64,000 nt of DNA from Candidatus Magasanikiibacteriota bacterium (GTDB lineage Bacteria; Patescibacteriota; Patescibacteriia; Magasanikbacterales; GWA2-37-8), in contig CAINUM010000063.1 in the NCBI GenBank assembly GCA_903853785.1, positions 2,974-66,973 of the forward strand, read 5' to 3'. The translations under genes and the position numbers were made by a program. Below are positions 34,878-49,229 of this stretch, piece by piece. The first letter of the stretch is position 1, and each line of letters opens with the position of its first letter. A model generated the notes under the pieces. It was not told the DNA's origin. It made no database searches and saw nothing but the letters and a program-made list of their open reading frames with translations.

Positions 34878-37289
34878 ATGTCAGCAGAAAAATCTGGAGC
34901 CGGATTTGGCTATGAATTATCTGAAGGAGCACAAATTGATTTGAGAGATTTAGGACGTGAAGATGCAAAACCTAGAGAAATGTCTCGTGTTTTTATTTAT
35001 CAATCAAAAGGCACAGATCAGGTTAGGGCAGAATTAATGTCAGGTAAATCCCCAGATCAGATTTCTTTTATTAATCTGATTTTTGCCGAAAAAAATGCCG
35101 ACAGTATTAGTCCAAACCAACTTTTACCAGTTGGTGGTTCTAAACGCCCGGGAGATAAAAATTCTTTAGAGGTTGCCAGAAGACGTATGCTTGAGGAAAC
35201 CCATTTACGCCCAATTAAAATCAAAAAATTGGGGAATATGGATTATAAATTAAATGATCCACGAAAAGAAAAGGCGGAGAAAATTGCAGCCACTTATTAT
35301 TTAGCTGAAGTTTTGCCATTGGATGTTGCGTATTCTCTAAATCCTCATGAAGATAAAATCGCAGGTTATCATCAGATAGATTTGACTACATATCGGGATG
35401 AAATTTTACGACAAGGTTTTTATGTTGCCGATGAAAATTCTGATGGAGAGAGAAAATTGCCAATGATAGATAGTTTGAGAGTGAGATATGAAGTTGGACC
35501 GGAAGATATGACTTCAAATATAGTAGAAGATATATCGGCGCAAAACGTCGCCGAACTCCAGGGTAGGTTAGTGGAAGAATTAGAGAATAAAGATTTTCAA
35601 AAAACTCAAAAAATTCTCTATCACCTGATCTCTTTGATGGATATGGATTCAAATGCTGTAGAGTATTGGATTGATGATGTCGATAAAGCAAAGAACATAT
35701 TGGATTCTACTAAAATTTTAAAGGATTTGTTGAGTTATGCGGCAAATGAAGTTTATAATAATGATGTTACGAAAGTTAGTGAACTTTTTTTGGCAGCCTT
35801 TGATCTGAGCAATTTTGAAGACGAAGTTTCTGAAAAACACGCTGGGAGATCTCACAATGAAATGGTTTTGCGTGTCGTTTTTTCATTACTAGAATCCAAA
35901 TTCAATTATGATAATTATATAGAATTAGTAAAAGCGAATCCAGATTTAGCAGATTTTGGTGAGCGATTAGAAAAATTTATCGGTATTCTTTCCAGTGGTG
36001 GAAACGAAACAGGTAATCGAAAAAAATTAGCATTTCAATTAAAAGGGCTTGACCAAATAGATCCGGAACTTGTTGAAGAGGCTTTTTTTGAGGCGTTTTT
36101 CGATTTTATTCCTAAAGATGCAGATGGAAAAAAACAGTTTGAACGAAGAATTAATAAAACCTTAGCAGCTATTGATAGTTTGTTAGATGAAAAGATTGTT
36201 CGTTCAAAATTGGCTCCAGTAGTTCGTGATCAATATAACGAACGCTTGTTAACTCAGGTGGGTGAAATTCGTAATGCCAAAATTTTTACTTTAATGAAAT
36301 ACGCTTTGCCGGGTGTTGGTTTGGAAGAAAAAAGTCGTTTTAAAGCGGATCAAGATGAGGTGAGTGGTCCGCAAGATAAAAATATGTTGCGCCGTGTTGT
36401 TTTTGAGGCAAGACGTAAATTGGCGATGTTATTTTTATTATTAGAATCAGACGAATATTACGATGAAGTAATAGATTTAGGTTCTCAAGAAATTCAAGCA
36501 TTGTGGAATGATATTTTAGATCCACCCAAAGTAAACTGTTTTCTATCTGAAAAACGTAACGAAAATAATGATCTGTTGGATATAGAGTCTAATTTTGTTA
36601 TGCCAGATAATAGCAGTGCTCAAACGATGGCCGTACGTCCGTTTAAAAATAAACTGGGGGATACTACTATGCTGGTTGGTCAATCGCTGCGAAGAAAAGA
36701 GAGAGAATCGGTTTATCGCAAAATGATTGTTCGTGGGTTTGATCGTCCGGAAGATATTAAGGATATTAATGGTCGCTCACTTGTAATTATGCCATCCAAA
36801 GATCAGCCGTTATCTGAGATTTTAAAAAAAGAAGAACGAGTGTTAGAAATTTGTGATCGTGATAATAATGGAAATTATGTTTGTGAGGATAAAAACTTTG
36901 AAGATCACGTGGCAGTATTTGATATAATTGAAAGTTTGCAGAAAGACAAACATGTAAAAATTTTAGAATACAAGCCAACTAATGAACCGGGAACTTCTTT
37001 TGATAGTAATGGAGCTGGCGGTGAAGGTCAGATTAGGTTAGCAAAATTTTATATTCAACATACTGATAATAATGGAAACGTTAGGACTGAAGAGGTTCAA
37101 ATTTTTACCCCTTCTGCAGATGGACGCAGTGGTTTTTATTGGGAAAAGAAAAAGAAAGAGGACGATGAAAGTTATGAATTTGATCGTCTGTTGCGTACCA
37201 AAGGGGTGCATTCATTTGTGGAGATTCTTTATCCAGCAAAAATATTTGGTAAACCAATTCAAAATGTAAATAAGAAAAAACGATCGTAA
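34878..37289 (+). CDS. multidomain protein: N-terminal Nudix hydrolase domain, large alpha-helical middle region, C-terminal RelA/SpoT-type (p)ppGpp-synthetase-like nucleotidyltransferase domain
   Basis: Nudix box GGSKRPGDKNSLEVARRRMLEETHL (GG-x5-G/E-x7-REuxEE) at aa 86-110. At the C-terminus, RRKERESVYRKM matches the Rel G-loop GRPKHIYSIYRKM, DIKDINGRSLVIM matches EIYDLLAVRILV, and EEVQIFT matches EVQIRT. Confidence 0.55.
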   Translation: MSAEKSGAGFGYELSEGAQIDLRDLGREDAKPREMSRVFIYQSKGTDQVRAELMSGKSPDQISFINLIFAEKNADSISPNQLLPVGGSKRPGDKNSLEVARRRMLEETHLRPIKIKKLGNMDYKLNDPRKEKAEKIAATYYLAEVLPLDVAYSLNPHEDKIAGYHQIDLTTYRDEILRQGFYVADENSDGERKLPMIDSLRVRYEVGPEDMTSNIVEDISAQNVAELQGRLVEELENKDFQKTQKILYHLISLMDMDSNAVEYWIDDVDKAKNILDSTKILKDLLSYAANEVYNNDVTKVSELFLAAFDLSNFEDEVSEKHAGRSHNEMVLRVVFSLLESKFNYDNYIELVKANPDLADFGERLEKFIGILSSGGNETGNRKKLAFQLKGLDQIDPELVEEAFFEAFFDFIPKDADGKKQFERRINKTLAAIDSLLDEKIVRSKLAPVVRDQYNERLLTQVGEIRNAKIFTLMKYALPGVGLEEKSRFKADQDEVSGPQDKNMLRRVVFEARRKLAMLFLLLESDEYYDEVIDLGSQEIQALWNDILDPPKVNCFLSEKRNENNDLLDIESNFVMPDNSSAQTMAVRPFKNKLGDTTMLVGQSLRRKERESVYRKMIVRGFDRPEDIKDINGRSLVIMPSKDQPLSEILKKEERVLEICDRDNNGNYVCEDKNFEDHVAVFDIIESLQKDKHVKILEYKPTNEPGTSFDSNGAGGEGQIRLAKFYIQHTDNNGNVRTEEVQIFTPSADGRSGFYWEKKKKEDDESYEFDRLLRTKGVHSFVEILYPAKIFGKPIQNVNKKKRS

Positions 37290-37301
37290 GATCGTTTTTT
37301 T
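37275..37301. terminator. bidirectional terminator between the Nudix-SAS gene and radA
   Basis: AAAAAACGATC-GTAA-GATCGTTTTTTT. The stop codon of the plus-strand gene lies in the loop. Confidence 0.6.
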
Positions 37302-37309
37302 GTTTAGTA

Positions 37310-38659
37310 TTATTTTTGAATTATTTTTTCAACTACTTCTTGAACGTTTTTTATCGGCGCTGTTTTTAGTCCGGTTATCTTAGGAATTTTTGATGATAGG
37401 GGAATCACAGCAATTTCTAATCCTAAATTTTTTATTTCCGTTAATCTTTTTTCTGTATGATTCACAGGACGCACTTCGCCGCTGAGTCCAACCTCTCCAA
37501 AAGCGGCAAGGCCTGGAGGAAGTGTTTTGTCTTTTAGCCCAGAAGCGATTGCGAGAATGACTGCTAAGTCTGCTGCCGGTTCATCAACGGTTAAGCCACC
37601 AACTACATTTAGAAATACATCATAAGACTCAAGAGGTAATCCAGCTCGACGCGATAAGACACCGATCAAAACCTGTAATCTGTTTAAATCGAATCCTGAA
37701 GCTCGGCGTTGAGGAAATCCAAAATTTGTTTTCGTCACTAAGGCTTGAATTTCAATAAGCATAGGGCGAGTGCCTTCCATGATTGCTGTAATAACGGTAC
37801 CTGGTACTGGTTCGTTTCTTTCTGAGATCATCGCAGCCGAAGGATTTTTAACTTCCACTAGTCCATCTTTTTCCATGGTAAATACACCAACTTCGTCGGT
37901 TGGACCAAAACGATTTTTGGCGGCACGTAAAATTCTAAAATCGTGAAAGCGGTCTCCCTCAAGATAAAGAACGGTATCTACCAGATGCTCCAAGGTTTTA
38001 GGACCGGCAACAGCGCCATCCTTGGTAACTTGTCCAACTAAAATAAATGTTATATTATTTTTTTTCGCAGCCTCAAGTAATTTTACTGTGCATGCTCGCA
38101 CCTGTGAAATATTTCCAGCTTCACCAGCCACTTCATCAGAATAAACTGTTTGGATTGAATCAATAATTGCTAATTTGCATTTTGTCGTCAGGCTAGTTGC
38201 AATAATAGTTTCGATATTGGTTGCACTTGCAAGTTCGAGAGTGGGGGATGAAATATTTAGTCGTAAAGCTCTCATTTTGATTTGTTGGGTAGATTCTTCT
38301 CCAGAAAAATATATAGTTTCTGGAATGATATTAGCTAATTGCAAAGCGAGGGTAGATTTACCCACACCAGGTTCACCGCCAAGCAATATTAGACTACCCG
38401 GAACTATTCCACCACCAAGCACACGATCGAGTTCAGAAATATTTGATTGGAATCGTTTAAAATTTTGGCTACTAATGTCTTTTAATTTTTCAGTTTTAAT
38501 TGGTAAATAATTTTTGGACAGGTCTTCTTTTTCTTTTCCTATAGGTGCGTTTACTTGTTCAACAGTACCCCATTTTCCACATTCCAAACATCGCCCAGTC
38601 CATTTCTGGAATTGGGCGCCACAGTGGGAGCAAGTAAAAATTATTTGATTGTTTTTCAT
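37310..38659 (-). CDS. radA: DNA repair protein RadA/Sms
   Basis: N-terminal C4 zinc finger (CSHCGAQF...CLECGKW), RecA-like GGEPGVGKSTL and a Lon-like C-terminal domain. Confidence 0.9.
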   Translation of the reverse strand: MKNNQIIFTCSHCGAQFQKWTGRCLECGKWGTVEQVNAPIGKEKEDLSKNYLPIKTEKLKDISSQNFKRFQSNISELDRVLGGGIVPGSLILLGGEPGVGKSTLALQLANIIPETIYFSGEESTQQIKMRALRLNISSPTLELASATNIETIIATSLTTKCKLAIIDSIQTVYSDEVAGEAGNISQVRACTVKLLEAAKKNNITFILVGQVTKDGAVAGPKTLEHLVDTVLYLEGDRFHDFRILRAAKNRFGPTDEVGVFTMEKDGLVEVKNPSAAMISERNEPVPGTVITAIMEGTRPMLIEIQALVTKTNFGFPQRRASGFDLNRLQVLIGVLSRRAGLPLESYDVFLNVVGGLTVDEPAADLAVILAIASGLKDKTLPPGLAAFGEVGLSGEVRPVNHTEKRLTEIKNLGLEIAVIPLSSKIPKITGLKTAPIKNVQEVVEKIIQK

Positions 38660-38668
38660 GGTCAGTAT

Positions 38669-40276
38669 TTAATGAATTGGGCAGCGAGCTGCGCCTGCAG
38701 CCGGAGGTATGCATGGTGAAAGTCCGGTATAACCTGTTATACGACAATATGCGCCAGCTTTTTGTGATTCAAAATGCCAATTTTCTGCACCATATCTCAC
38801 AAAACCGGCACTGTACATAATACTTGAAAGGGCAGCTACTCCTTGGGCGTTTGCTTTGCATTGGTTTTTGCCACTAAACCCGCCATCAGAAATTTCACTA
38901 CCACCTTTCGTTAAGACCAAGTCGAGTGCATAGCCAGTACCATGAGGAGAATTACCTGGTTTGGCAACAGTACCAGAACTTACTCCACCAGGCTGAGCTT
39001 TTGCTATTTTTTGTTGAGAGGCAATACTACGACATTTTGATCGAACACCAATTACATATCCTTGTGCTGCAGCTTTTTTTCCAGCATCTATAAGTTTATC
39101 GGCTGTAATTTTTGCAACAAAATTTTCTCTTGGATCACCTTCTTTTCTAACAGACAAACCTGCACATTTGTCACCTTTACAAAGCGCCACTAAATCAACC
39201 CAACCTTCTGGTGGTGATGCAGTGTTAATTTTATCGCAAGCACCTTTTTCACCAACCGTAGGACCTCCAGCCATACCCGCTTCCATATCGGAAGTGTCGA
39301 TATCATCTGGAATTGGCAGTGGTTCAATGTATTGTACTTTTAAGGCACTAAAATTAACTAAGTCAGGATTGATAGTATATAAAATAGAATATGATCCCCA
39401 AGCGATAGACAATCCTATTAATACTTTCCCAATTTTTTTGAGACCTTCAACTCGTTCAGCTCCACCCAAAACGGTTATTTTTACACCAACTACAATTATC
39501 ATTATTACCCCGATAATGCTGATTGCTACCATTGATATTTTATAAATCGCAGACATATATTCACCGATATAAGGAAGATGAAGATATCCTTGCTCATCAA
39601 TACTGTTGGCTATATCAGTAAAAGTTAATTGCGGAATGTTTATTTCCAATTTCGGTGGTTTGATTTCCAATTTTTTTTCAACAGTAGCAATTGGTGGGGC
39701 TACTGTCGGCGCCACATCTTCTACTGCAGCCGTAGTTTTTGTTCCAGCCTCTCCAGGTAGGCCGACTGACGGACTTAGGGCGTCATTGAGTTTTGAAGCT
39801 TCTGGTTCGCAAAGAGGCAAGCTTGCAAATTGAGGAGTATCGGCGGCACTCTTGGCTACTAAACATTCATATGTGCCATCCGGTCTTTTTGAGACGTAGT
39901 ATGGCTGGGAAAAAGCCTTTGGAACCCCTTTGTCCGGAAAGATATTGTCACCGGAATCATTGTGGCAATATTTCAGGTCTGTTCCATCTTTATTATCATT
40001 CCAGCAATACCAGCTTCCGGTGAATGGGGGGTTGGAACCATATTTTGTTAAACAATCACCGTCGTTATTGCAGGTACAATACATAGGATTTCCAGGCAGT
40101 GAACTTTTTTCACAATCTAAGCTTGCCCCACCAATCTGACAATCATTATTTGATATATTCTGAGTACACTTGTCACCGATTGCACTAGTGGCAGCATTAA
40201 CAAGTGTTATATTTATAAAAAATAAAAATAGAGCAACTGTTATTAATATAAATTTAGTTTTAATATATTTATTCAT
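38669..40276 (-). CDS. secreted/membrane-anchored peptidase M15 (VanY/endolysin-type) with Cys-rich ectodomain and 2-TM hairpin module
   Basis: Signal peptide, a Cys-rich roughly 150-aa region, two TM helices (SIIGVIMIIVVGVKI...VLIGLSIAWGSYSILYTINPDLVNF) and a C-terminal SPHGTGYALDL ... ENWHFE (M15 His/Asp zinc ligands). Confidence 0.65.
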   Translation of the reverse strand: MNKYIKTKFILITVALFLFFINITLVNAATSAIGDKCTQNISNNDCQIGGASLDCEKSSLPGNPMYCTCNNDGDCLTKYGSNPPFTGSWYCWNDNKDGTDLKYCHNDSGDNIFPDKGVPKAFSQPYYVSKRPDGTYECLVAKSAADTPQFASLPLCEPEASKLNDALSPSVGLPGEAGTKTTAAVEDVAPTVAPPIATVEKKLEIKPPKLEINIPQLTFTDIANSIDEQGYLHLPYIGEYMSAIYKISMVAISIIGVIMIIVVGVKITVLGGAERVEGLKKIGKVLIGLSIAWGSYSILYTINPDLVNFSALKVQYIEPLPIPDDIDTSDMEAGMAGGPTVGEKGACDKINTASPPEGWVDLVALCKGDKCAGLSVRKEGDPRENFVAKITADKLIDAGKKAAAQGYVIGVRSKCRSIASQQKIAKAQPGGVSSGTVAKPGNSPHGTGYALDLVLTKGGSEISDGGFSGKNQCKANAQGVAALSSIMYSAGFVRYGAENWHFESQKAGAYCRITGYTGLSPCIPPAAGAARCPIH

Positions 40277-40808
40277 AAACTTCTAATTCACCATACATGG
40301 TGTTGTGACCATCACCACAATACCAGTTACAAAAAAAAGTATAATTACCAGTTCTGTCAGGGACAAATTTTATGGTAGTGGTTTGTCCAGGTTCAAGTAA
40401 TACTTGTGAAAAGCCAAATTTATCTAATGAAAATGTGTGTTTGCTATCGGAGGTATTTTTGAGATTAATTATTATTAAGTTATCTTTTTTAACTTTAATT
40501 TTTGATGGCTTATATTCCCAATTTATAATTTCCATTTCTATTTTTTGTTTGTTTTCAGTTGTATACTTTGATTCATCATAATTGTTGTTTGAAGACACCA
40601 AATTCATTTCTGTAGACCCTTCTCCATCAGGAAGACCTAATTCACCAGGTATTGAATCCGAAAGATCAGTTTGTTCATTCATTTGTGTTTTTATATGTTT
40701 TTCTATAGCTCTATGTTTACCAACTTTAAAGTCAAATAATAGAATAAATATCGACATTATTATTATAAAAATCAAAATTGGTGTGATAATCTTCATTTCT
40801 TTGATCAT
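40269..40808 (-). CDS. membrane-anchored cupredoxin with CuA-type binuclear copper motif (COX2/NosZ-like domain)
   Basis: N-terminal TM helix. H-x35-CNWYCGDGHNTM matches H...C-x3-C-x3-H-x2-M. No COX1-like gene is adjacent. Confidence 0.55.
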   Translation of the reverse strand: MIKEMKIITPILIFIIIMSIFILLFDFKVGKHRAIEKHIKTQMNEQTDLSDSIPGELGLPDGEGSTEMNLVSSNNNYDESKYTTENKQKIEMEIINWEYKPSKIKVKKDNLIIINLKNTSDSKHTFSLDKFGFSQVLLEPGQTTTIKFVPDRTGNYTFFCNWYCGDGHNTMYGELEVYE

Positions 40809-40817
40809 AATTTAATT

Positions 40818-43154
40818 TTATGGGCGACCATCACATCGCATTTCTTTGCATACTCCCCAATATTCAAAATGCATACCGTCAGTTCTAAAGGCTTTAGTAT
40901 TACAAAAATCACCGCCCCAAACAAATCCATTTTTCTTAAAAATATCGATCCATTTTTTTGGATGAGTAGTAAATGGATTTGAACCGTCAGCAAATCTACT
41001 ATTTAAGCAATCGTTGAGACCCTTTTCTATTCTTTCTGCTAAACCGGCGTATTTTTTGAATTCGTCTTTTTGTTTTTCATAGTTTTCCTTATATTGATTG
41101 CACCACGTAATCGCTGATCCGGTGTTTTTACTACCATCGTATTTAAAATCTTGATTACTGCCATAAATCAAATCTACGGCCATTGCCGCCTGGTGCATGT
41201 CTTTAGTTACAGAGTCATTTACTTCGCAAGTTGCTTTTTTTCTTGCATATCCAAATCCGCAATGTTCACCGGCTAAACCTTCGCTAATCCCTGATGATGC
41301 ACGATCGTGTGGTTTTTTAGGATAGGTATGAAGAGATGGCGAATCTTTGCCAGTACCTTGAAAAAATTTTACATAGTCTTTCATTTCAGGTTCTGGACTT
41401 TCTAAAATTTCTTTTTCTACTTGTTTAAATGCAGCAACTGCTTTTGGATTGATTTTAAATTTTGCCCCAAGAAAAGTTATAGCTACTGATGGCGGTTGAA
41501 CCCCTACATGTAAGTCGTATGCACCCATTAAGCATTTTGCCGACGGACCAACTTTTGGGTATAATTCCAAGCCCTTTGAATCATATTGACCGTTATAAGT
41601 AGCGTTGTCGGCACCCTCATAACCCGTACCTTCAGAACTACTCGGAATCTCTTCGCGGGCAATGTACCGAATTTTTAAAGCATTAAAATTTACCAGATCT
41701 GGATTGATAGTATATAAAATAGAATAGGAACCCCAGCCGATAAAAAGGCCAATAATTACTTGGCCAATTTTTTGAAAACCATGAATACGTTCTTCACCTC
41801 CAATAGTTGTTATTTTTACACCTTGAATAATGATCATTATTACGGCGATGATACTCATTGCTACTAAGGCTACTTTGTAAGCTGCCGATAAATATTCGCC
41901 AATATAAGGTACAGTCAAATAACTGACACCGTTTATTTCTACGAGACTGTTTTGAACATCAGAAAACTGAAGCTGTGGAATGTTGATAGCCAAATCCGGT
42001 TTGTATGTTTTAATTTCTTGCACAACACCTGGGGTTCCGCTTCCACCCGCTCCTGCACCACTGCTGCCATCTGGTTGTATTGATGTACAAGTAGCATTCA
42101 CGGCCTCCATCTCACCGTCATGTTGCGATTTTGCAGTTTGTGATGTAACAGTAGCAGGATAATTTTTTGTTTGTGGTGCAAAAGTTTTAGATGAATCATC
42201 ATAAATATACATCGTCACTGTTATCTTTCCGTTACTGCCTACATCTACCCAGGCAAAGGAGTCAGCCACATCTGAAGAAGTTTGGCCTTTAGTGTATTCC
42301 ATCATTTGTTTTCCCATCGTTCCACTGTTGATGTACTCTAAACCATCACATGTACCATGATAGTTGGCATGCGTGTGCCCAGCAAAAAGAGCTTTGGCAT
42401 TTTTGGATATTAATTTTTGTGTAAGTTGAGAAAAATCTTGAACCTCGCCATTTTTTCCAGGGTCATTACTTTTTCCTAATACACTACTTCCACAAACCGA
42501 TCCATCTTTTGCACAAGACAATCCATAGGGAGTAACATGTCGAAAAACAAGATCTCCAGCGACCATGTTTGAATCCAGACAGTCCAGTTCTTGTTGTGAT
42601 AGCCAATAGTGGTGTCCATCAAAATATGGATCGATCAAAACAAAACCTTGCCCCTTGTAAGAGAAAGAAGAAAAACGATAAGGAGAATTCGGTCCGCAAG
42701 TTGTTCTCGTTTTATATGGGTCAAATAATTTAGCAGATTGATTTCCCCAAAATGTGTACCACGGGGAATGGCCATTTAAAAAATCATGATTTCCAGCCAC
42801 TGGAACAACGGGAATTTCTAATTTTGATAAAAAAGCTTTATTAAATTCTGTGTACTGTGCTGCTGATCCTTTATAGGCTAAGTCACCCAATAAAACTACA
42901 AAATCTGGCTTTTTTTCATTAATAAATGGAACTACATTTATAAGTGCTTCACCCTGGACGTCAGTATTTAGTTCTGGTGTATCCGAAATTACTGCGAAAC
43001 TAAAAGATATACCGTTTGCTCCAGCTTCAGCTTTTTGCGATGCAGCATCGGCAGGCCCAGATAGTTGTTCATCAGTCATTGCTATAGCCGACAGTGGGGC
43101 TAATAAGGTACCAACCAACAAAACCAAAGCAATAATTTTTTTGGATACGTACAT
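40818..43154 (-). CDS. secreted calcineurin-like metallophosphoesterase fused to 2-TM hairpin module and C-terminal peptidase M15 domain
   Basis: Signal peptide. GDLAY, GNHDF and GHTHANYH phosphoesterase motifs. The TM module is roughly 65% identical to that of the 38669 protein. C-terminal HQAAMAVDL ... DGMHFEYWG is the M15 signature. Confidence 0.65.
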   Translation of the reverse strand: MYVSKKIIALVLLVGTLLAPLSAIAMTDEQLSGPADAASQKAEAGANGISFSFAVISDTPELNTDVQGEALINVVPFINEKKPDFVVLLGDLAYKGSAAQYTEFNKAFLSKLEIPVVPVAGNHDFLNGHSPWYTFWGNQSAKLFDPYKTRTTCGPNSPYRFSSFSYKGQGFVLIDPYFDGHHYWLSQQELDCLDSNMVAGDLVFRHVTPYGLSCAKDGSVCGSSVLGKSNDPGKNGEVQDFSQLTQKLISKNAKALFAGHTHANYHGTCDGLEYINSGTMGKQMMEYTKGQTSSDVADSFAWVDVGSNGKITVTMYIYDDSSKTFAPQTKNYPATVTSQTAKSQHDGEMEAVNATCTSIQPDGSSGAGAGGSGTPGVVQEIKTYKPDLAINIPQLQFSDVQNSLVEINGVSYLTVPYIGEYLSAAYKVALVAMSIIAVIMIIIQGVKITTIGGEERIHGFQKIGQVIIGLFIGWGSYSILYTINPDLVNFNALKIRYIAREEIPSSSEGTGYEGADNATYNGQYDSKGLELYPKVGPSAKCLMGAYDLHVGVQPPSVAITFLGAKFKINPKAVAAFKQVEKEILESPEPEMKDYVKFFQGTGKDSPSLHTYPKKPHDRASSGISEGLAGEHCGFGYARKKATCEVNDSVTKDMHQAAMAVDLIYGSNQDFKYDGSKNTGSAITWCNQYKENYEKQKDEFKKYAGLAERIEKGLNDCLNSRFADGSNPFTTHPKKWIDIFKKNGFVWGGDFCNTKAFRTDGMHFEYWGVCKEMRCDGRP

Positions 43155-43156
43155 AT

Positions 43157-43813
43157 TTATTTAGCAATAAATTTTGTCAGCATTTCTATTATATCAATAT
43201 CATTTTCCAAATTTATTTTTTTATTATTAGCATAAATTGTTGGCACTTGGGTTACATTGAGGGAAGTAGCCAGGTCAGTAGTACGTGCAATTTTTTGTTT
43301 GGCTTCTTCAGAATTTACACACTGCCACCAAGTTACTGTATTTATTTTTAAATCATTAGCAATTTTAGTTAGATCAGATTCGCTAGAAATATTTTTTTCA
43401 TTATTTAAAACGTCAACATATTGCCAGTATTTATTTTGTTTGCCAGCACAAAATGCACTACGGTGCGGCATATCATTAATTTTATAAAATAAATTTTTTT
43501 GTGGAATTTCTTTTAAATACATTCGTACATCTTGTGGGTGTTCACTAACAAATTTACTTATTTTATTATATTGTATTTTACAAGTTGGGCAATTAAAATC
43601 GATAAACAATACGATTGTGAGTGGGGCACCTGGGTTGCCCAGTATTTGATCATCGTTTTCTGTCGCGATATCGAAATAACCCGCACTCAACAATGGGGTA
43701 TCGCTTTGTTTGACTGTAATTTTTTGAGTATTTAGTAGTTGAACAGTAAAAATTCCACCAGCTGTAATTACCGCTACTATTAATAATATATAAAATTTAT
43801 TAATTGGGTGCAT
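43157..43813 (-). CDS. membrane-anchored DsbA/BdbD-like thiol:disulfide oxidoreductase
   Basis: N-terminal TM and CPTC active site in a thioredoxin fold. Confidence 0.75.
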   Translation of the reverse strand: MHPINKFYILLIVAVITAGGIFTVQLLNTQKITVKQSDTPLLSAGYFDIATENDDQILGNPGAPLTIVLFIDFNCPTCKIQYNKISKFVSEHPQDVRMYLKEIPQKNLFYKINDMPHRSAFCAGKQNKYWQYVDVLNNEKNISSESDLTKIANDLKINTVTWWQCVNSEEAKQKIARTTDLATSLNVTQVPTIYANNKKINLENDIDIIEMLTKFIAK

Positions 43814-43824
43814 ATTGGTGGTAA

Positions 43825-45060
43825 TTATAATTTAATTTGGAAAACACCACTTTGAGTAGCATCTGTGAAGAAAACTTTATTTTTTGTTTGATCAAAATTT
43901 ATACTCTTGATATTGTAGTCTCCACCTAAAGAGATGTTGGTTTTTAAGCCAGTTTTTAAATCAATTTTATACATGTCATCTTTGTTGTCGGCGGCTACTT
44001 CAGGGAGAATTCCTGCGCCTTGTGGTAGATCGCGGGGTACTGCACAGAATAGAGTCGTATCACCAGCGAAGGCACATTTGTCAGCCCAAGTATTTAATTT
44101 AAGCATTTGTCGATTGCCACCAATGTTATCTCCATAAGAATCGGTGATCCAAAGTTCAGGCTTAAAATCACTACGTGTACTATAGACGCTATATAAAAGT
44201 TTTTGGCCAGTTGGTGACCACTGTGGTTGAAAGCCCAAACCTTCCACAACTGCAGATTTGAAATTTTCTCCATGTAGTCCTACAAACAACACCTCGCGTC
44301 TTTCACCACCGAGCGGTTCGCCGGTTTGTGAGAAAGCCACAGTCTGACGGTTTGGGGACCAATCAATCTGTACTTTATCTGAATTTTCGCCCATTGGTTC
44401 GACTAGAGTGGTTCCACTACCGTCATCATTTACTGTTACCAGCCAGCGATTTTCTGGAGATAGGCCAATACTTTTTGCGGCGAGTTGGGTGCTATCTGGT
44501 GAAAAAGAAAACTGCTCCCAATGTTTCGGTAAAGTTACCTGTTTTTGTTTTTCAAAATCATAAATTGTTTTGGATCCATCTGGATATTCTAACACAGCTT
44601 TGTCGTTGTTGTTTGCCCAGGTTACATTACTAACATTATAAAATGTTTGATCAGACAAAGATCTCATTTGTCCATCACTGGCTAGTCGATAAAATTTTCC
44701 ATCCCCTTGGTTGTAGTATCGGATGTTACCGGCTTGACTATATCCAGCAAAATCTACTTGATCAGAAGTTAATTTTGTTACTGGTGCAGTTTGATAATAA
44801 CCACCAGGTGTTACCTGTGGAATCGCAGGTAAAGTTGTCTGAACTCCACGACCTAGTTGACCAGTGCCGGTTCCGCCGGTTGCTGCGGTGGAAGTTCTTT
44901 CTCCGGCACCCGGTAATTGTCCGGCCGGTTCAGATGGAACTTCAACAGGCGCCTGCACAATTGTCGCTCTTTTGAAAAGTGCATATAAACCGAAACCTAT
45001 TAGTATAGTTGCAACCAACAGTGCGATTATTAAAAGTATACGTTTTAGTGCAGGGTTCAT
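43825..45060 (-). CDS. membrane-anchored beta-propeller protein (TolB/PD40-like repeats)
   Basis: N-terminal TM. Repeated FSPDSTQLA / WSPNRQTVAF / WSPTGQKLLY PD40-like blades. Confidence 0.6.
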   Translation of the reverse strand: MNPALKRILLIIALLVATILIGFGLYALFKRATIVQAPVEVPSEPAGQLPGAGERTSTAATGGTGTGQLGRGVQTTLPAIPQVTPGGYYQTAPVTKLTSDQVDFAGYSQAGNIRYYNQGDGKFYRLASDGQMRSLSDQTFYNVSNVTWANNNDKAVLEYPDGSKTIYDFEKQKQVTLPKHWEQFSFSPDSTQLAAKSIGLSPENRWLVTVNDDGSGTTLVEPMGENSDKVQIDWSPNRQTVAFSQTGEPLGGERREVLFVGLHGENFKSAVVEGLGFQPQWSPTGQKLLYSVYSTRSDFKPELWITDSYGDNIGGNRQMLKLNTWADKCAFAGDTTLFCAVPRDLPQGAGILPEVAADNKDDMYKIDLKTGLKTNISLGGDYNIKSINFDQTKNKVFFTDATQSGVFQIKL

Positions 45061-45086
45061 ATGTTTATTTTATTTATTTTGAAGTG

Positions 45087-46628
45087 TTAGTTTGTCGGGG
45101 CTGGAGGAGGAGGAGGAGGTGGTGGTGGTGGTGGTGGTGGTGGTGGTGGTGGTGTGTCTGGTTTGGTCTCCGGATTTTTGTTTGCCTGATTATTTTTATG
45201 AGTGTTGTTCGCGTCTTCTTTGCGTTCAGACTTGGAGGCACGAAGGAGGTTGTTTGTGGCCACAATTCTTTTTCTGATTTTAACTTTTTTATTTAATCGA
45301 TCCAATATTTCTGTGATTTTTTCAATCATTGGATTGATGTCGTCTTTAATTATAGTCTTTAATGCTCTAGTTGTTTTACCGGATCCCGTAGCACCTTTAA
45401 AAATAAAAATTGGTAAGGCAATAATAGGTGAAAGAATAATTATGATAATACCTATTATTATTTCTACTAACGGAACACCAACTCTAACAACACTAACAAC
45501 GGCCTCAATATAATCTGCAATAATGATTAAAGCATTAAGCATAGTTTTGACCAAACGAAGAACTGCTAAATTGGCCTCAAGCATCTTTATTTTTGCGTCA
45601 TCTTTGGCATTTGCTTTACCAAATGTAAGTGATGTGATTTTATCGTATAGAGGACGAGCAAAAGTTTTTAAAATTCTCATTGCCCAACTACCTTTCATTC
45701 CATCAACTTTGCTATCGAGAGCGGCTAATTCAGAGTATAGTTTTTTTTGTTCTGCTCGCAACTTCTTTTTTCTACTGCGATCACTTTGCAAACTGTTTGC
45801 AATATTAGCAACCATTTTCCTGGGTGCGTCCTTGATATTTTGTGCACCTTTTTGGATTTTATTAGCCGCCCCATTTGCGATTTTTGAGCCCAAATTTTTG
45901 GCTCTGGATTTGAGACTGGAAGCTTTGTTTGATTGGTCTTTTGGCGCTACTGTTTTAGGGGTTTTGTTCGAGGTTGCGTGTGGGCCAGTTTTGGCTAGCT
46001 CTTCACTGTTTGGTTTAGAAAGTTTCTTATTAGCATTGGGATTCATGTCTGATCGCCAAGGCTTTGTGTCGTTCATCTTGTCTGCATTTGCCGATTTTTT
46101 TTGTGGTTCTTTTGAATCTGGCTGAGTTTCGTTTTTTTTATCAGAAGTTGTTTTTTCTGCGGAAGAATCAGTATTATTAGGTGGTGTATTGCGATTTGGT
46201 GTATTTTCTGAAGCTGGAGGTTGTTGATTTTGTGTTGGATTAGTCTCGGAATTATTTTGTGATTCAGTTGCAGGCGGTTGTGGTTCTGGAGATTTTTCTG
46301 GTGATTGTTGTTCTTTTACTGGAGCGGCGTTCTGATCATTTGGGTTTTTGGACGGCGTGCTGTTGGTCGAAGTTTGATTCTGATTTGATTCATTAAAATT
46401 TTCCGGAGCGGAAGTGCTACTTTGTGGCCTATTTTTAGTTGGTTCGTTTTTTATTTCTGCATTGTCGTTGGCAACCTTTTTAGTGTCGCCCAATTCGAAT
46501 TCTACCGATTTACCTCCACTTCGAATTTTTGCATTTTTAACACCAGACATTCCTGTAATTACAACATCGTCATTGGCAGCTTCAGGGCCACTAGTTGTAG
46601 GTTTTTGTTGTCTGGCGGGCAAAGCCAT
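45087..46628 (-). CDS. low-complexity S/T/N/Q/P-rich single-pass membrane protein ending in a poly-proline tract
   Basis: Long disordered N-terminus, one TM near aa 390-420 and C-terminal P19 encoded by the (GGT)n/(GGA)n repeat. Confidence 0.5.
   Translation of the reverse strand: MALPARQQKPTTSGPEAANDDVVITGMSGVKNAKIRSGGKSVEFELGDTKKVANDNAEIKNEPTKNRPQSSTSAPENFNESNQNQTSTNSTPSKNPNDQNAAPVKEQQSPEKSPEPQPPATESQNNSETNPTQNQQPPASENTPNRNTPPNNTDSSAEKTTSDKKNETQPDSKEPQKKSANADKMNDTKPWRSDMNPNANKKLSKPNSEELAKTGPHATSNKTPKTVAPKDQSNKASSLKSRAKNLGSKIANGAANKIQKGAQNIKDAPRKMVANIANSLQSDRSRKKKLRAEQKKLYSELAALDSKVDGMKGSWAMRILKTFARPLYDKITSLTFGKANAKDDAKIKMLEANLAVLRLVKTMLNALIIIADYIEAVVSVVRVGVPLVEIIIGIIIIILSPIIALPIFIFKGATGSGKTTRALKTIIKDDINPMIEKITEILDRLNKKVKIRKRIVATNNLLRASKSERKEDANNTHKNNQANKNPETKPDTPPPPPPPPPPPPPPPPPAPTN
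45103..45153. repeat. trinucleotide microsatellite (GGA)5(GGT)12 encoding poly-Pro on the minus strand
   Basis: Directly visible at ctggaggaggaggaggaggtggtggtggtggtggtggtggtggtggtggtggtg. Confidence 0.9.
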
Positions 46629-46633
46629 AAAGT

Positions 46634-49150
46634 TTATTTAACAAGCAATTTTTTATCGGCGATATCTAAAGTGTATTGTTTTTTATTGTTCTTTTTTAAT
46701 ATTACTTCGGCCATTAATTTTTCAATAGCGGTTCGTAATTGACGTCGGATTGTTCGTGCGTTTGCATTTGTGGTCGGTAGGGAAGAGATGTAAGCAGATA
46801 AGATTTTTTCTTTGGCATCAAGCTTCGTGTGATATTGTGATAGGCGTTCATTAAATTTAACAATTTCTAATCCGGCAATTTTGGCCAAGTCCAAAGTGGT
46901 CAAAGTGTTGAATAGACAAATTTTATCCAAACGATTGATCAGTTCAGGAGAGAAAAATTCTTTTAATTTTTCGTTAATTTTTTTATCGTAAATTTCACTT
47001 TGAGATGCTGTTCCACCAAAGCCAAAATCGGCACGGTTGGCATCTTGAGCACCAAGTGAAGTTGTCAGTATTATTATAGCATGTTTTAAAGAAATTTTCT
47101 TCCCCGTCGAGTCGGTGATTTCCCCATTTTCTAAAATTTGTAATAATAATTTGGTCACATCCTTGTGGGCCTTGTCGATTTCGTCGAACAACACCACACA
47201 ATGAGGATTATTTTTTATTTTATCGGTAAAATTATTTCCTTCTTTGTAACCAACATAACCAGCTGGTGAACCTAGTAGTTTAGAAACACCAAAACTTTCG
47301 TTAAACTCACTCATATCTAATTTGATGAGCGAATCTTTGCTTGGATAAAGAGTATCGGCGATAGTTTTGGCTAATTCAGTTTTTCCTACGCCACTTTGGC
47401 CCACGAACATGAATGAAGCCAAAGGTCTATCTGGGTGGTTTAATCCCAAACGAGCCCGATTGATGATTTCGGATACTTCACGAATCACAACATCTTGGCC
47501 GATTACCAAAGTTTTTAGTTTGTCCTCCAAGTCGATCAGTTCATTTTTTTCCTCCATGATTAATTCACTTGGTTTTGAGCCAGTAATTTTTGCAATTTGC
47601 ACTAACACGTCATGATCATTAATTTCATCTTGAAAATCTGTCTTATTTTCTTTGGCAATTTTATTTTCTTGATCTATTTCTATACGTAATTTTTCCTCTT
47701 GAATTTTTAGTTTAACCGCCTCGTTGAATTTATCCGAAAGCGCCGCTGCTTCTTTAGCAGAAATTGTTTTTTCTAATTTTTGTTTTAAACGTTCAACTTT
47801 TCCAACCCAGGAATTGTTTTTGGAATTAATTCTTTTAGCTGCGGCTGTTTCGTCCAACAAGTCGATCGCTTTATCTGGCAAAAATTTATTTGTAATATAG
47901 CGTTGCGAAAGGCGAACGGCCGCTTCTATAGCAGACTTGTTGATTTTTACACTATGAAAAATCTCATAATTTATTTTAATACCTTCAAGAATTTTGACAG
48001 AATCTTCCGCTGACGGTTCTTTTACAAAAATAGGTTGAAAGCGGCGTTCTAGTGCAGAATCGCTCTCAATATGTTTTTTAAATTCGTTTAAAGTAGTTGA
48101 TCCGATACAACGTATTTGGCCACGTGCTAAAGCAGGTTTTAGAATGTTCGCAGCGTCCATTGTGCCTTGATTACTACCTGCGCCGACGATATTATGAAGT
48201 TCGTCTATAAACAAAATAATATTTGGATTGGCGGCGACATCGTCAATCACTTGGTGTAAACGTCCTTCAAATTCACCGCGGTAAATGGTGCCGGCAATCA
48301 AAAGACCCATATCCAAAGCGTAGATTTTTTTGTTCAACAAAATATCTGGTACTTTATTTTGTAAAATACGTTTTGCTAAACCCTCGATGATGGCAGTTTT
48401 GCCGACCCCAGGATCACCTAATAGTACAGGATTATTTTTGGTGCGACGACAAAGAATCTGAATTAGGCGTTCGATTTCATTTTCTCGTCCAATGATAGGA
48501 TCAATATTTTTTTGTAACTCTGGATTAGTTAGGTTAGTAGCAAAAAAATCTAAAGCCAATTCTTTTTTACCTGGTTTTTTATTTGTTTTTGCAATCGGAT
48601 GGTTGTGTGGTGTATCGTTGTTATCGGAACCAAACATATTGTCTTGAATTTTTTCAACCGCTTCCATCACTTCATTAATTTGTGGAAATTGTGAGGCGTT
48701 GGTGAGTACGGTTTCTAATTGTTTTATTATTTCAGTTAGAGCGACATTATTGTTTTTTAAAGCCAGGTTGATTGTTGGGTTATTTAATTCAATAATTCCT
48801 TTTAATAAATGTTCCGTGCCAATATAGTTATGAGTATGGTCTTGGGCAATAACTAAAGATTTTTCCATAGCTGCTTTGGAATCTTCAGACATTGGTGACA
48901 TCTGTAGGTCGGTAGTGTTAGCTGTTTTTTTTCTAGCGACTGTTGGTAATCCTAAAATCATTTTTTCAACACTTTTTAAATCAATTTTTAGGCGATTTAA
49001 AATTTCCGAAGCGACGGATCCTTTTTGGTTCTGTAAAATAAAAAACAGGTGGATTGGTTCCACTTCTTTATTTTCAAGTTTTGTGGCTAATTGTATGCTT
49101 TTACTAAGGACATCTTTGAAGTGGGTGGAGAATCTTTCTAATATAGACAT
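46634..49150 (-). CDS. clpC: AAA+ chaperone ClpC/ClpB family
   Basis: Two Clp_N repeats, NBD1 [10 protein letters not shown], a coiled-coil middle region, NBD2 [12 protein letters not shown] and a C-terminal small domain. Confidence 0.9.
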
Positions 49151-49229
49151 AATACAGTTATATTGCTTTAAGAATAGGGATATTATATAATGAAAGAATG
49201 TAATTTACAAGCTAAAAAAAGATAAAAAT

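What the first reader, a model, noticed from the sequence alone, without database searches (positions are those of the whole stretch)
38669..43154. Two adjacent surface proteins share a duplicated 2-TM hairpin module fused to M15 peptidase domains but carry different ectodomains, bracketing a lone CuA cupredoxin
Seen in sequence: protein 38669..40276 is signal peptide, then a Cys-rich domain, then the module, then M15 (SPHGTGYALDL...ENWHFE). Protein 40818..43154 is signal peptide, then calcineurin-like metallophosphoesterase, then the module, then M15 (HQAAMAVDL...DGMHFEYWG). The shared module (INIPQLxFxD...YIGEYxSAxYK...SIIxVIMIIxxGVKIT..GGxER..G..KIG.V.IGL.I.WGSYSILYTINPDLVNF) is about 65% identical at the protein level and about 75% identical in DNA (about 39300..39650 vs 41640..42010), so it is a recent dispersed intragenic duplication. 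The topology implies both enzymatic domains are extracytoplasmic and tethered by a TM hairpin. The hairpin loosely resembles VirB2/TrbC pilin or holin-like segments, but this is not proven. M15 domains are typical endolysin/VanY cell-wall peptidases. Between the two genes sits a 179-aa membrane-anchored cupredoxin with a complete CuA ligand set (H-x35-C-x3-C-x3-H-x2-M) but no heme-copper oxidase or NosZ partner in the window. Inference: this is a cell-wall remodelling / surface-interaction cassette, plausibly relevant to an episymbiotic lifestyle, carrying a possible redox copper protein of unclear role.
Basis: partly seen in the sequence, partly recalled or inferred. Interest (0 to 1): 0.7.

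Follow-up and report, generated by a model that had tools for sequence, protein, structure and literature searches.

The report
Pilin-like hairpin anchoring cell-wall hydrolases
Two neighbouring surface enzymes of an ultra-small (Patescibacteria) bacterium share a conserved two-helix membrane hairpin related to conjugation-pilus subunits; the hairpin is an old, widespread domain that carries cell-wall-cutting enzymes, not a recent duplication, and the copper protein between the two genes is a lineage-specific insertion.

Summary
ORFs 38669-40276(-) and 40818-43154(-) share one roughly 125-aa module (61% aa identity, E 8e-41). Each has a signal peptide, a different N-terminal ectodomain and an intact M15 (LAS-type) peptidase domain. 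A 179-aa cupredoxin with H124-x35-C160-x3-C164-x3-H168-x2-M171 lies between them.

The interpretation needs three corrections.

1. The module is a divergent member of Pfam T4SS_pilin (PF18895, VirB2-like). The window copies score below threshold. All 10 relatives tested as module-only segments hit PF18895 first, and 3 of them pass the curated cutoff.

2. The duplication is not recent. dS between the two copies is 1.3, and orthologous tandem pairs exist in other Magasanikbacteria. The module occurs mid-protein in at least 150 protein clusters (50% identity), with N-terminal ectodomains that differ between members and various peptidoglycan hydrolases after it. The locus ClpB-X-PD40-DsbA-module gene(s)-RadA is widely conserved in Patescibacteria; a DsbA-like gene lies directly upstream in 61 of 71 informative loci.

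3. The cupredoxin is absent from every syntenic locus, so the "bracketing" is incidental. It is a CuA-type domain with no partner in the window.

No T4SS ATPase or channel gene lies nearby. The most likely function is a hairpin-anchored, disulfide-stabilised cell-wall remodelling enzyme. Whether the hairpin also interacts or polymerises like a pilin is open.

The parts
38669..40276 (-). Gene A, 535 aa: signal peptide, 8-Cys ectodomain, pilin-like hairpin module, VanY/M15 peptidase
   Evidence: ORF. Pfam VanY 26.8 bits. 18 Cys, all outside the module.
39797..40192 (-). A aa 29-160: Cys-rich N-terminal ectodomain; the conserved core of about 75 aa has 8 conserved Cys plus one Trp
   Evidence: Iterative search finds it in 42 sequences (including duplicate entries) among the module proteins and locus ORFs collected. 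Alignment A5. AlphaFold mean pLDDT 72, small beta-rich fold. No PDB fold match at E<=0.001. No Pfam hit.
39308..39682 (-). A aa 199-323: shared module = conserved N-flank (KPxLEINIPQLxFxD..PYIGEY), TM1, GG/K-R loop, TM2, conserved C-flank (INPDLVNFxALK)
   Evidence: Weak PF18895/TrbC hits.
38753..39115 (-). A aa 388-508: M15B/VanY-type LAS metallopeptidase domain (SPHGTGYALD ... ENWH)
   Evidence: Weak hit to the phage Ply500 L-Ala-D-Glu peptidase 2vo9, E 0.0013.
40269..40808 (-). 179-aa cupredoxin with an N-terminal TM helix; its stop overlaps the start of A by 8 nt and it begins 9 nt after B
40296..40439 (-). Cupredoxin aa 124-171: CuA-type ligand set H124, C160, C164, H168, M171
   Evidence: Regex check. 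Aligned to the Thermus ba3 CuA site. Matches the NosZ and CoxB CuA domains.
40818..43154 (-). Gene B, 778 aa: signal peptide, metallophosphoesterase, pilin-like hairpin module, Peptidase_M15_4
42300..43001 (-). B aa 52-285: calcineurin-like metallophosphoesterase with GDLAY / GNHD / GHTH motifs (the GDxxY form resembles purple acid phosphatases)
   Evidence: Pfam PF00149, 52 bits. Motifs. The purple-acid-phosphatase resemblance is from my own knowledge of that motif set.
41643..42026 (-). B aa 377-504: second copy of the module
   Evidence: PF18895 E 0.008.
40860..41195 (-). B aa 654-765: M15_4 LAS metallopeptidase core (HQAAMAVD ... DGMH)
43157..43813 (-). Membrane-anchored DsbA-like thiol-disulfide oxidoreductase (CPTC), 2 nt upstream of B; the most constant partner of module genes
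   Evidence: Pfam Thioredoxin_4/DSBA. Present in 70 of the 83 related loci. Directly upstream of the module gene in 61 of 71 loci where an upstream gene is visible.
43825..45060 (-). TM-anchored PD40/TolB-like beta-propeller protein, conserved upstream neighbour
   Evidence: Present in 57 of the 83 related loci.
45087..46628 (-). 513-aa low-complexity/TM protein occupying the variable 'X' slot between ClpB and PD40
37274..49210 (-). Probable single transcription unit ClpB-X-PD40-DsbA-B-cupredoxin-A-RadA. Intergenic gaps are 2-26 nt or overlapping. There is a promoter-like site at 49210-49182 and a hairpin terminator at 37274-37301.
   Evidence: Coordinates. Consensus scans only.

Best explanation
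A and B are tandem paralogues of a large Patescibacteria (CPR) family of Sec-exported, hairpin-anchored surface enzymes. The shared module is a VirB2-like 'T4SS_pilin' (PF18895) two-helix hairpin, extended by family-specific conserved flanks.

Inferred topology: the signal peptide takes the N-terminal ectodomain across the membrane. TM1 stops transfer. The short GG/K-R loop stays in the cytoplasm. TM2 re-exports the C-terminal domain. Both enzymatic or binding domains would therefore sit on the outer face, held at the membrane.

The C-terminal domain is always a cell-wall-active enzyme. Here it is one of two LAS/M15 peptidases; elsewhere it is SLT, amidase, NlpC/P60, CHAP, M23, C39-like, GH18 or GDSL. 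The N-terminal domain varies: an 8-Cys domain in A and a phosphoesterase in B. The membrane-anchored DsbA-like protein encoded immediately upstream most likely makes the disulfides of these Cys-rich ectodomains.

The unit is part of a deeply conserved core-gene operon (ClpB...RadA), not a mobile element or a T4SS cluster. Its most likely job is therefore peptidoglycan remodelling of the cell's own wall, and possibly of a host's wall at the contact site.

The cupredoxin is a CuA-type, single-TM protein inserted into this operon only in this lineage. Its role (electron carrier to a partner elsewhere, or copper handling) is unresolved.

Shown: the homology, the architecture, the intact motifs, the synteny, the age of the duplication, and the absence of the cupredoxin elsewhere.
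Inferred: the topology, the DsbA dependence, and the substrate and physiological role.
For: Module and pilin family:
- 28 of 89 full-length relatives hit PF18895 at E<=1e-3, best 3e-8.
- All 10 relatives tested as module-only segments have PF18895 as their best-scoring family, covering profile positions 4-71 of 71 on TM1-loop-TM2. Three exceed the 26.6-bit cutoff.
- The window copies hit PF18895 and TrbC weakly.
- AlphaFold gives a helix 42-77 / GG / helix 80-109 hairpin with pLDDT about 90.

Family size and architecture:
- 6495 / 1292 / 149 cluster representatives at E<=1e-3 / 1e-10 / 1e-30.
- The module sits mid-protein, with a median of 148 aa before it and 237 aa after it.
- C-terminal repertoire among 89 relatives: VanY 15, SLT 14, Amidase_2 7, Peptidase_C39_2 7, M15_4 6, GDSL 4, NlpC/P60 2, CHAP 2, GH18, M23, glucosaminidase.
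- The catalytic motifs of both M15 domains are intact.

Synteny:
- DsbA-like in 70, PD40 in 57, RadA in 53, RecG in 52 and ClpB in 48 of 83 loci from Magasanik-, Uhr-, Falkow-, Peregrini- and Parcubacteria.
- DsbA-like is directly upstream in 61 of 71 informative loci, and RadA directly downstream in 52 of 73.
- A has 18 Cys and B has 14, none of them in the module.

Age of the duplication: dS 1.31; orthologous pairs in L001 and L002.

Cupredoxin: absent from all syntenic loci. CuA ligands align to Thermus ba3 subunit II.
Against: - The window's own module copies are below the PF18895 gathering score (16.6 and 11.2 bits against 26.6), so membership rests on transitive homology.
- Topology was inferred from hydropathy, charge and leader sequences only; no dedicated predictor was available.
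- No enzymatic activity or localisation is known for any family member.
- The 80 loci were the best matches to a Magasanikbacteria-derived profile, so the synteny statistics describe this orthologous subfamily, not all 6495 hits.
- A published survey says that Magasanikiibacteriota T4SS loci often include recG and radA (PMC12102498). A T4SS link at larger genomic distance therefore cannot be excluded.
Confidence: 0.7

Rival explanations
1. Decorated or minor pilins, or VirB1-VirB2 fusions. The hairpin is a functional pilin module that docks into, or co-polymerises with, the Patescibacteria VirB2-like pilus/T4SS. This would deliver hydrolases that open the producer's or the host's wall for the pilus, supplying the VirB1 function that most CPR genomes appear to lack.
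For: - The module is homologous to PF18895.
- The C-terminal domains (SLT, CHAP, NlpC/P60, M23) are the same kinds found in monoderm VirB1-like hydrolases.
- In VirB2-type pilins both termini face outward (my own knowledge of the F-pilus structure), so appended domains could in principle be displayed.
Against: - No VirB4, VirB6 or coupling-protein gene is present in the window; every ORF of 400 aa or more was scanned.
- None was found in the ±8 kb flanks of three alternative locus types that I annotated (L070, L073, L074). Their neighbours are UvrA, RNase J, PFOR, RF-1 and RpoC.
- No T4SS-like gene family recurs across the 83 loci.
- Globular domains of 150-400 aa on both ends of every subunit would be hard to pack in a VirB2-type helical filament (inference).
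- The genes sit in a core housekeeping operon.
Confidence: 0.15
2. One reading: a recent intragenic duplication created a three-gene surface cassette in which the CuA cupredoxin works together with the two hydrolases.
For: The cupredoxin is tightly packed in the operon: a 9-nt gap after B and an 8-nt overlap with A. Its GC3 is not clearly foreign, 0.22 against 0.25-0.29 for the neighbours.
Against: - dS 1.31 between the two module copies.
- The A/B pair is conserved without the cupredoxin in L001 and L002.
- The cupredoxin has no BLASTP match in any of 83 syntenic loci.
- It has no close relative in the 5.8-billion-protein index apart from itself.
- Its nearest relatives in metagenomes are at most 43% identical.
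Confidence: 0.04
3. Holin-endolysin-like lysis module or prophage remnant: a holin-like hairpin fused to an endolysin-type M15 peptidase.
For: M15 domains are common in phage endolysins; A weakly matches Ply500. Class II holins are two-TM hairpins (my own knowledge).
Against: - N-terminal signal peptides and large N-terminal ectodomains imply an out-in-out topology, the opposite of holins.
- The chromosomal synteny with ClpB, DsbA and RadA is conserved across many candidate phyla.
- There are no phage genes in the window.
- The best profile match is to pilins, not holins.
Confidence: 0.03

Closest known systems
Pfam PF18895 T4SS_pilin / VirB2-TrbC-like pilins of Patescibacteria (Quinonero-Coronel et al. 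2025, PMC12102498; Wang et al. 2023, PMC10633639)
   Same: Signal peptide followed by two hydrophobic helices joined by a short basic loop. The profile match covers almost the whole Pfam model in relatives. [quoted passage not shown]
   Different: Known pilins are small stand-alone proteins, often encoded next to virB4. Here the hairpin is embedded in 535- and 778-aa enzymes, has extra conserved flanks, lies in a housekeeping operon with no T4SS gene nearby, and the window copies score below the Pfam cutoff.
Monoderm VirB1-like T4SS peptidoglycan hydrolases (PrgK of pCF10, TcpG, TraG of pIP501, CwlT of ICEBs1)
   Same: Membrane-tethered, often multi-domain wall hydrolases (SLT, CHAP, NlpC/P60, M23) acting on the outer face of a monoderm membrane. 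The same catalytic domain types occur in this family.
   Different: Those enzymes use a single N-terminal TM segment or a lipobox rather than a central pilin-like hairpin, and they are encoded inside conjugation clusters. That comparison is from my own knowledge and from the text quoted. A and B carry M15 peptidases and are not in a T4SS cluster.
VanY / M15B-M15C LAS metallopeptidases (e.g. phage A500 endolysin Ply500, 2vo9)
   Same: The H-x6-D plus [E/D]-x2-H zinc and catalytic motifs are present, and the Pfam hits are above cutoff.
   Different: Similarity is low (E about 1e-3 to 1e-6). The domains are fused downstream of a membrane hairpin and end in Cys-containing tails.
CuA domain of ba3-type cytochrome oxidase subunit II (Thermus, 2cua/1ehk) and of NosZ
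   Same: One N-terminal TM helix plus a cupredoxin of about 90 aa with an identical ligand pattern, CNxYCGxGHxxM.
   Different: In 20 of the 27 distant relatives examined, the gene directly precedes (in a few, lies within 3 kb of) a 12-13-TM subunit I-like ORF. Here there is none in 64 kb. Pfam COX2 is below its cutoff (13.4 against 22 bits). The charge distribution around the TM helix does not clearly place the domain outside the cell. A similar orphan occurs in a metal-handling cluster in L084.

Membership tests
Pfam PF18895 T4SS_pilin (VirB2-like pilin) | Profile match at or above the curated gathering score (26.6 bits) | tested here: inconclusive
   Window modules score 16.6 bits (B, E 0.008) and 11.2 bits (A, E 0.41). 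Of 10 relatives tested as module-only segments, 3 score 32-38 bits, one scores 26.5, and PF18895 is the best-scoring family for all 10. 28 of 89 full-length relatives hit at E<=1e-3. These relatives match the window module at E of 1e-18 or lower (most below 1e-30).
Pfam PF18895 T4SS_pilin (VirB2-like pilin) | Signal peptide followed by two hydrophobic helices joined by a short basic loop | tested here: met
   Hydropathy. AlphaFold hairpin with a GG turn. The loops GGAERVEGLKKIGK and GGEERIHGFQKIGQ are read from the sequence.
Pfam PF18895 T4SS_pilin (VirB2-like pilin) | Small stand-alone subunit (about 100-150 aa precursor) | tested here: not met
   The module is embedded at aa 199-323 of 535 and at aa 377-504 of 778. 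The family median is 148 aa before and 237 aa after the module.
Pfam PF18895 T4SS_pilin (VirB2-like pilin) | Encoded with T4SS core genes (virB4, virB6, etc.) | tested here: not met
   No such Pfam family was found in any window ORF of 400 aa or more. No recurrent T4SS-like neighbour appears in 83 loci.
Pfam PF18895 T4SS_pilin (VirB2-like pilin) | Polymerises into an extracellular pilus | not testable with these tools
   This needs multimer modelling, cryo-EM or pilus proteomics.
LAS / M15 metallopeptidases (VanY PF02557, Peptidase_M15_4 PF13539) | Profile match above cutoff and the H-x6-D ... [E/D]-x2-H motifs | tested here: met
   A: VanY 26.8 bits against cutoff 25, with H445-x6-D and E498-x2-H. 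B: M15_4 27.8 bits against cutoff 25, with H654-x6-D and D759-x2-H.
LAS / M15 metallopeptidases | Zn-dependent cleavage of peptidoglycan stem peptides | not testable with these tools
   A biochemical assay is required.
CuA cupredoxin (COX subunit II / NosZ C-terminal domain) | Binuclear-site ligands H ... C-x3-C-x3-H-x2-M in a cupredoxin fold | tested here: met
   H124, C160, C164, H168 and M171 align to the Thermus CuA ligands. Cupredoxin_1 scores 56 bits.
CuA cupredoxin (COX subunit II / NosZ C-terminal domain) | Family-level profile (Pfam COX2; NCBIfam CoxB or NosZ) above cutoff | tested here: not met
   COX2 13.4 bits against cutoff 22. CoxB 39.6 against 147.7, and NosZ 55.8 against 625.
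CuA cupredoxin (COX subunit II / NosZ C-terminal domain) | Catalytic partner adjacent (subunit I) or fused (NosZ propeller) | tested here: not met
   SecY is the only ORF in the window with 8 or more TM segments. No oxidase, NosZ or NirK family was found. The rest of the genome could not be searched.
Calcineurin-like metallophosphoesterase (PF00149) | Profile above cutoff and the metal-binding motifs | tested here: met
   52 bits against cutoff 21.5. GDLAY, GNHD and GHTH are present. The first motif is D58-T-P rather than D-x-H.
VirB1-like T4SS-associated wall hydrolase | Peptidoglycan hydrolase encoded inside a T4SS gene cluster | tested here: not met
   A hydrolase domain is present, but there is no T4SS cluster in the window or in the related loci.
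Holin | Small protein with in-out-in (class II) topology, no signal peptide, encoded in a phage lysis cassette | tested here: not met
   Signal peptides and large ectodomains are present, and the chromosomal synteny is conserved.

The most novel reading that the evidence does not exclude
The VirB2-like pilin hairpin of Patescibacteria may be a modular scaffold that carries enzymes. These 'pilin-hydrolases' would then be the missing VirB1 equivalents of the CPR T4SS/pilus. They could assemble with, or at the base or tip of, the essential pilin filament and cut the producer's or the host's cell wall at the epibiont contact site, with a dedicated DsbA maturing them.
Probability: 0.12. Interest if true: 0.8.

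Novelty: new variant of a known kind. Interest (0 to 1): 0.5.

Why it matters
Patescibacteria are ultra-small, mostly uncultured bacteria that depend on hosts. Their VirB2-like pilins are essential in the one species tested, their T4SS lacks a recognisable VirB1, and how they build and remodel their wall is poorly known.

This work shows three things: the pilin-type hairpin is also the central module of a large family of wall hydrolases; that family is strictly paired with a DsbA-like gene; and the pair sits in a conserved core operon. That gives a concrete, testable link between envelope remodelling and pilin-like membrane modules. It also warns that profile-based counts of 'VirB2 pilins' in CPR genomes may include these enzymes.

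The orphan CuA-type cupredoxin is a small separate curiosity in a lineage usually described as lacking respiration.

Tried and rejected
- Word-indexed protein search with the module alone found nothing. The exhaustive HMM search was needed.
- A profile of the module against PDB sequences gave only a chance GPCR hit, E 2.6.
- Cys-rich ectodomain: no Pfam hit, and no PDB fold match at E<=0.001. The fold remains unassigned.
- B's C-terminal region against PDB sequences: no hit.
- Cupredoxin relatives: the protein index returned only itself. The metagenome scan returned relatives at most 43% identical, mostly Thermus-like oxidase operons.
- I looked for VirB4 and VirB6 in alternative locus types (large ORFs next to module genes). 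They turned out to be UvrA, RNase J, a solute-binding protein, PFOR subunits, RF-1 and RpoC.
- I tested the recent-duplication or gene-conversion idea for the window pair. It is rejected by dS 1.31 and by positional grouping with L001. Within-genome homogenisation does seem to occur in other genomes.
- The holin/endolysin reading is rejected on topology and synteny.
- Four of ten literature searches were run; three concerned the pilin module. None found a description of pilin-embedded hydrolases. This is absence of evidence only, because domain-architecture databases could not be consulted.

Full report
**1. What is in the sequence**

The region 37.3-49.2 kb of the window is one tightly packed minus-strand gene string. 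Its order is ClpB (46634-49150), a 513-aa low-complexity/TM protein, a TM-anchored PD40 beta-propeller, a DsbA-like oxidoreductase (43157-43813), gene B (40818-43154, 778 aa), a 179-aa cupredoxin (40269-40808), gene A (38669-40276, 535 aa) and RadA (37310-38659). Gaps are 2-26 nt or overlapping. The best promoter-like site lies upstream of ClpB and a strong bidirectional hairpin follows RadA; both come from consensus scans only. The exact protein B is on record from ENA/NCBI metagenome assemblies, and named relatives are Candidatus Magasanikbacteria, a CPR/Patescibacteria lineage.

**2. The observation**

BLASTP of A against B gives one significant segment: A 199-323 against B 377-504, 61% identity, E 8e-41. 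At DNA level a 250-nt block is 74% identical, and identity over all 125 codons is 67%. A family HMM finds exactly these two copies in the six-frame translation of the window (E 4e-55 and 3e-51; next hit E 0.43).

- A carries VanY/M15. B carries Metallophos plus Peptidase_M15_4. All are above Pfam cutoffs.
- Both have intact H-x6-D and [E/D]-x2-H motifs.
- Both start with hydrophobic leaders ending in VNA/A and AIA/M.
- The module contains a very hydrophobic helix, a GG turn with a K/R-rich loop, and a second helix. AlphaFold models it as a hairpin with pLDDT about 90 and poorly defined flanks.
- The cupredoxin has H124-x35-C160-x3-C164-x3-H168-x2-M171, aligned ligand for ligand with the CuA site of Thermus ba3 oxidase subunit II (E 3e-9).

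**3. What the module is**

The two window copies, scanned alone against Pfam, give only weak hits, but to the right families: T4SS_pilin PF18895 (E 0.008 and 0.41) and TrbC/VirB2 PF04956.

An exhaustive HMM search with the two-copy profile finds 6495 cluster representatives at E<=1e-3, 1292 at E<=1e-10 and 149 at E<=1e-30. In the best 160 the module lies mid-protein, with a median of 148 residues before it and 237 after it.

Of 89 full-length relatives, 28 match PF18895 at E<=1e-3. When only the module segments of 10 relatives are scanned, PF18895 is the best-scoring family for all 10. The match covers profile positions 4-71 of 71 across TM1-loop-TM2, and three exceed the 26.6-bit gathering score.

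**4. What the module is attached to**

Across the 89 relatives the region after the module is a catalogue of wall-active domains:

| Domain | Members (of 89) |
|---|---|
| VanY | 15 |
| SLT | 14 |
| Amidase_2 | 7 |
| Peptidase_C39_2 | 7 |
| M15_4 | 6 |
| GDSL esterases | 4 |
| NlpC/P60 | 2 |
| CHAP | 2 |
| GH18, M23, glucosaminidase | 1 each |

The N-terminal part varies.

- The Cys-rich domain of A recurs in 42 sequences of my collection, counting duplicate entries of the same protein. It has eight conserved cysteines and one tryptophan in about 75 residues. It is modelled as a small beta-rich fold (mean pLDDT 72) with no PDB fold match.
- B's N-terminal domain is a metallophosphoesterase whose GDLAY/GNHD/GHTH motif set resembles the GDxxY form of purple acid phosphatases (the comparison is from my own knowledge).
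- A has 18 cysteines and B has 14, none of them in the module.

**5. Genomic context**

A scan of one genome per GTDB species found 317 stretches encoding relatives; the best 80 loci were retrieved. They come from Magasanik-, Uhr-, Falkow-, Peregrini- and Parcubacteria, Minisyncoccota and unnamed Patescibacteria. Some third-party assemblies are titled 'uncultured Gammaproteobacteria', which I take to be placeholder labels.

I clustered all neighbouring ORFs. Counts are out of 83 loci: these 80 plus three fetched earlier, L001-L003.

| Neighbour | Loci (of 83) |
|---|---|
| DsbA-like | 70 |
| PD40 propeller | 57 |
| RadA | 53 |
| RecG | 52 |
| ClpB | 48 |

The DsbA-like gene is the immediate upstream neighbour in 61 of 71 loci where an upstream gene is visible. 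RadA is the immediate downstream neighbour in 52 of 73. Twenty-four loci have two or more module genes.

Other locus types also keep the DsbA-module pair, but next to UvrA, RNase J, PFOR, RF-1 or RpoC. No VirB4, VirB6 or coupling-protein family was seen in any window ORF of 400 aa or more, and none was seen among recurrent neighbours.

The stable unit is thus DsbA-like plus pilin-hairpin hydrolase inside a core-gene operon. Because the loci were chosen as best matches to a Magasanikbacteria-derived profile, these statistics describe this orthologous subfamily, not every family member.

**6. Age of the duplication**

Two related genomes carry the same pair in the same order: a metallophosphoesterase-module protein, then a second module protein (VanY-type in L001; no Pfam hit on record for the L002 copy), then RadA.

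In a distance tree of modules, the window's A and B each group with their positional counterparts in L001 (0.76 and 0.73 identity) rather than with each other (0.66). Nei-Gojobori estimates for A against B are dN 0.30 and dS 1.31. That is as deep as the orthologue comparison, where WIN_A against L001_A gives dS 1.18.

The similarity is therefore maintained by purifying selection on an old domain. 'Recent dispersed duplication' is not supported. In several other genomes the two tandem modules are 0.8-0.9 identical and cluster by genome. This suggests independent duplications or module-limited gene conversion there.

**7. The cupredoxin**

- It is absent between the two module genes in the closest syntenic genomes.
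- It has no BLASTP match in any of the 83 loci.
- It retrieves only itself from the protein index.
- Its nearest metagenomic relatives are at most 43% identical.
- In 20 of the 27 distant relatives examined, the gene directly precedes (in a few, lies within 3 kb of) a 12-13-TM ORF of the size of oxidase subunit I (typically about 563 aa). The best low-GC hit, L084, is another orphan, set among metal-handling genes.
- NCBIfam places it nearest the CuA domains of NosZ and CoxB, far below family cutoffs. Pfam COX2 is also below its cutoff.
- The window has no oxidase, NosZ or NirK.
- Its GC3 is not clearly foreign.
- The residues following its TM helix are more basic than those preceding it, so an outside location of the copper domain is assumed, not shown.
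- Cupredoxins have been noted before in some CPR genomes that carry nirK (PMC5581439).

I conclude that it is a lineage-specific insertion into the operon, of CuA type, with an unknown partner. Its position between the two hydrolases is incidental.

**8. Mechanism proposed**

Shown: homology of the hairpin to VirB2-like pilins, the tripartite architecture, intact catalytic motifs, strict DsbA pairing, and core-operon synteny.

Inferred:
- Sec export of the N-terminal domain, an out-in-out hairpin, and both domains displayed on the outer face.
- Disulfide formation by the adjacent DsbA-like protein.
- Peptidoglycan stem-peptide cleavage by the M15 domains.
- Phosphoester hydrolysis by B's N-terminal domain.

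I put about 0.7 on 'hairpin-anchored, DsbA-matured wall-remodelling enzymes built on a pilin-type module'.

The main rival (about 0.15) is that the hairpin still behaves as a pilin, so that these proteins work with the CPR pilus/T4SS as fused VirB1-VirB2 equivalents. This is attractive because CPR genomes have essential VirB2-like pilin arrays but mostly lack VirB1 (PMC12102498, PMC10633639). That survey also states that Magasanikiibacteriota T4SS loci often include recG and radA. However, no T4SS core gene lies near any locus I examined. The holin-endolysin and 'recent cassette with cupredoxin' readings are rejected.

**9. Comparison with what is known, and novelty**

VirB2-like pilins of Patescibacteria, M15 peptidases, DsbA proteins and CuA domains are all known kinds. 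What I did not find described, in the three literature searches that concerned the module and in the relevant papers I read, is the pilin-type hairpin as the central module of a large family of multi-domain wall hydrolases, its near-obligate pairing with a DsbA-like gene, and its conserved ClpB...RadA locus. I could not consult domain-architecture databases, so the architecture may already be listed there. I rate it a new variant of a known kind, of moderate interest (0.5). The most novel reading not excluded is pilus-associated hydrolase delivery, or a VirB1 surrogate, at about 0.12 probability.

Noticed in passing
window 45087-46628 (-): A 513-aa ORF with a low-complexity N-terminal half, a TM cluster at about aa 352-415, a Walker-A-like GATGSGKTT directly after it (weak Zot hit, E 0.0012) and a poly-Pro tail. 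The tail is encoded by a CCN run that reads as W, H or P runs in other frames. A gene occupies this slot between ClpB and PD40 in nearly all related loci, but its length ranges from 164 to 930 aa.
   Followed up: partly
window 34878-37289 (+): An 803-aa ORF between RecG and RadA with no Pfam or NCBIfam family (only sub-threshold HopA1 and NUDIX hits). It is conserved in only about 5 of the 83 related loci.
   Followed up: partly
L014, L040, L025, L080 and other loci (module genes at about 8 kb in each locus): In many genomes the two tandem module copies are more alike within a genome (0.79-0.92 identity) than to any other genome's copies. This suggests repeated duplication or gene conversion confined to the module while the flanking domains differ.
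   Followed up: partly
L084 5803-6240 (+) and neighbours: A low-GC metagenome contig carries a similar orphan: a TM-anchored CuA-motif cupredoxin (CNNYCGDGHQTM). It sits next to an HMA-domain/permease/cupredoxin fusion and a hemerythrin-like gene, with no oxidase. This points to a copper-handling rather than respiratory context for such orphans.
   Followed up: partly
window 40734-40808 (-), cupredoxin N-terminus: The flank after the TM helix (DFKVGKHRAIEKHIK, net +3) is more basic than the flank before it (MIKEMK, net +1), so the positive-inside rule does not clearly place the copper domain outside the cell. Another assembly calls the gene 17 codons shorter (162 aa), which would truncate the TM helix.
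   Followed up: partly
window 42300-43001 (-), B aa 52-285: The metallophosphoesterase motifs are of the GDxxY / GNHD / GHxH type, reminiscent of purple acid phosphatases, and the first motif is D-T-P instead of D-x-H. This may be a surface phosphoesterase for scavenging or for teichoic-acid-type substrates.
   Followed up: no
window 11934-13013 (-), 32186-34309 (+), 37310-38659 (-): DprA, RecG and RadA all lie in this window. This matches the published remark that Magasanikiibacteriota loci with T4SS-type genes often include competence and recombination genes, yet no VirB4 is present here.
   Followed up: partly
window 37274-37301: A perfect 11-12-bp stem hairpin flanked by A and T runs lies between the convergent 803-aa ORF and RadA. 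It looks like a bidirectional intrinsic terminator.
   Followed up: no
locus titles (e.g. L012, L014, L019, L021): Many third-party MAG assemblies that carry this typical Patescibacteria locus are titled 'uncultured Gammaproteobacteria bacterium'. These are almost certainly placeholder or wrong taxonomic labels.
   Followed up: no
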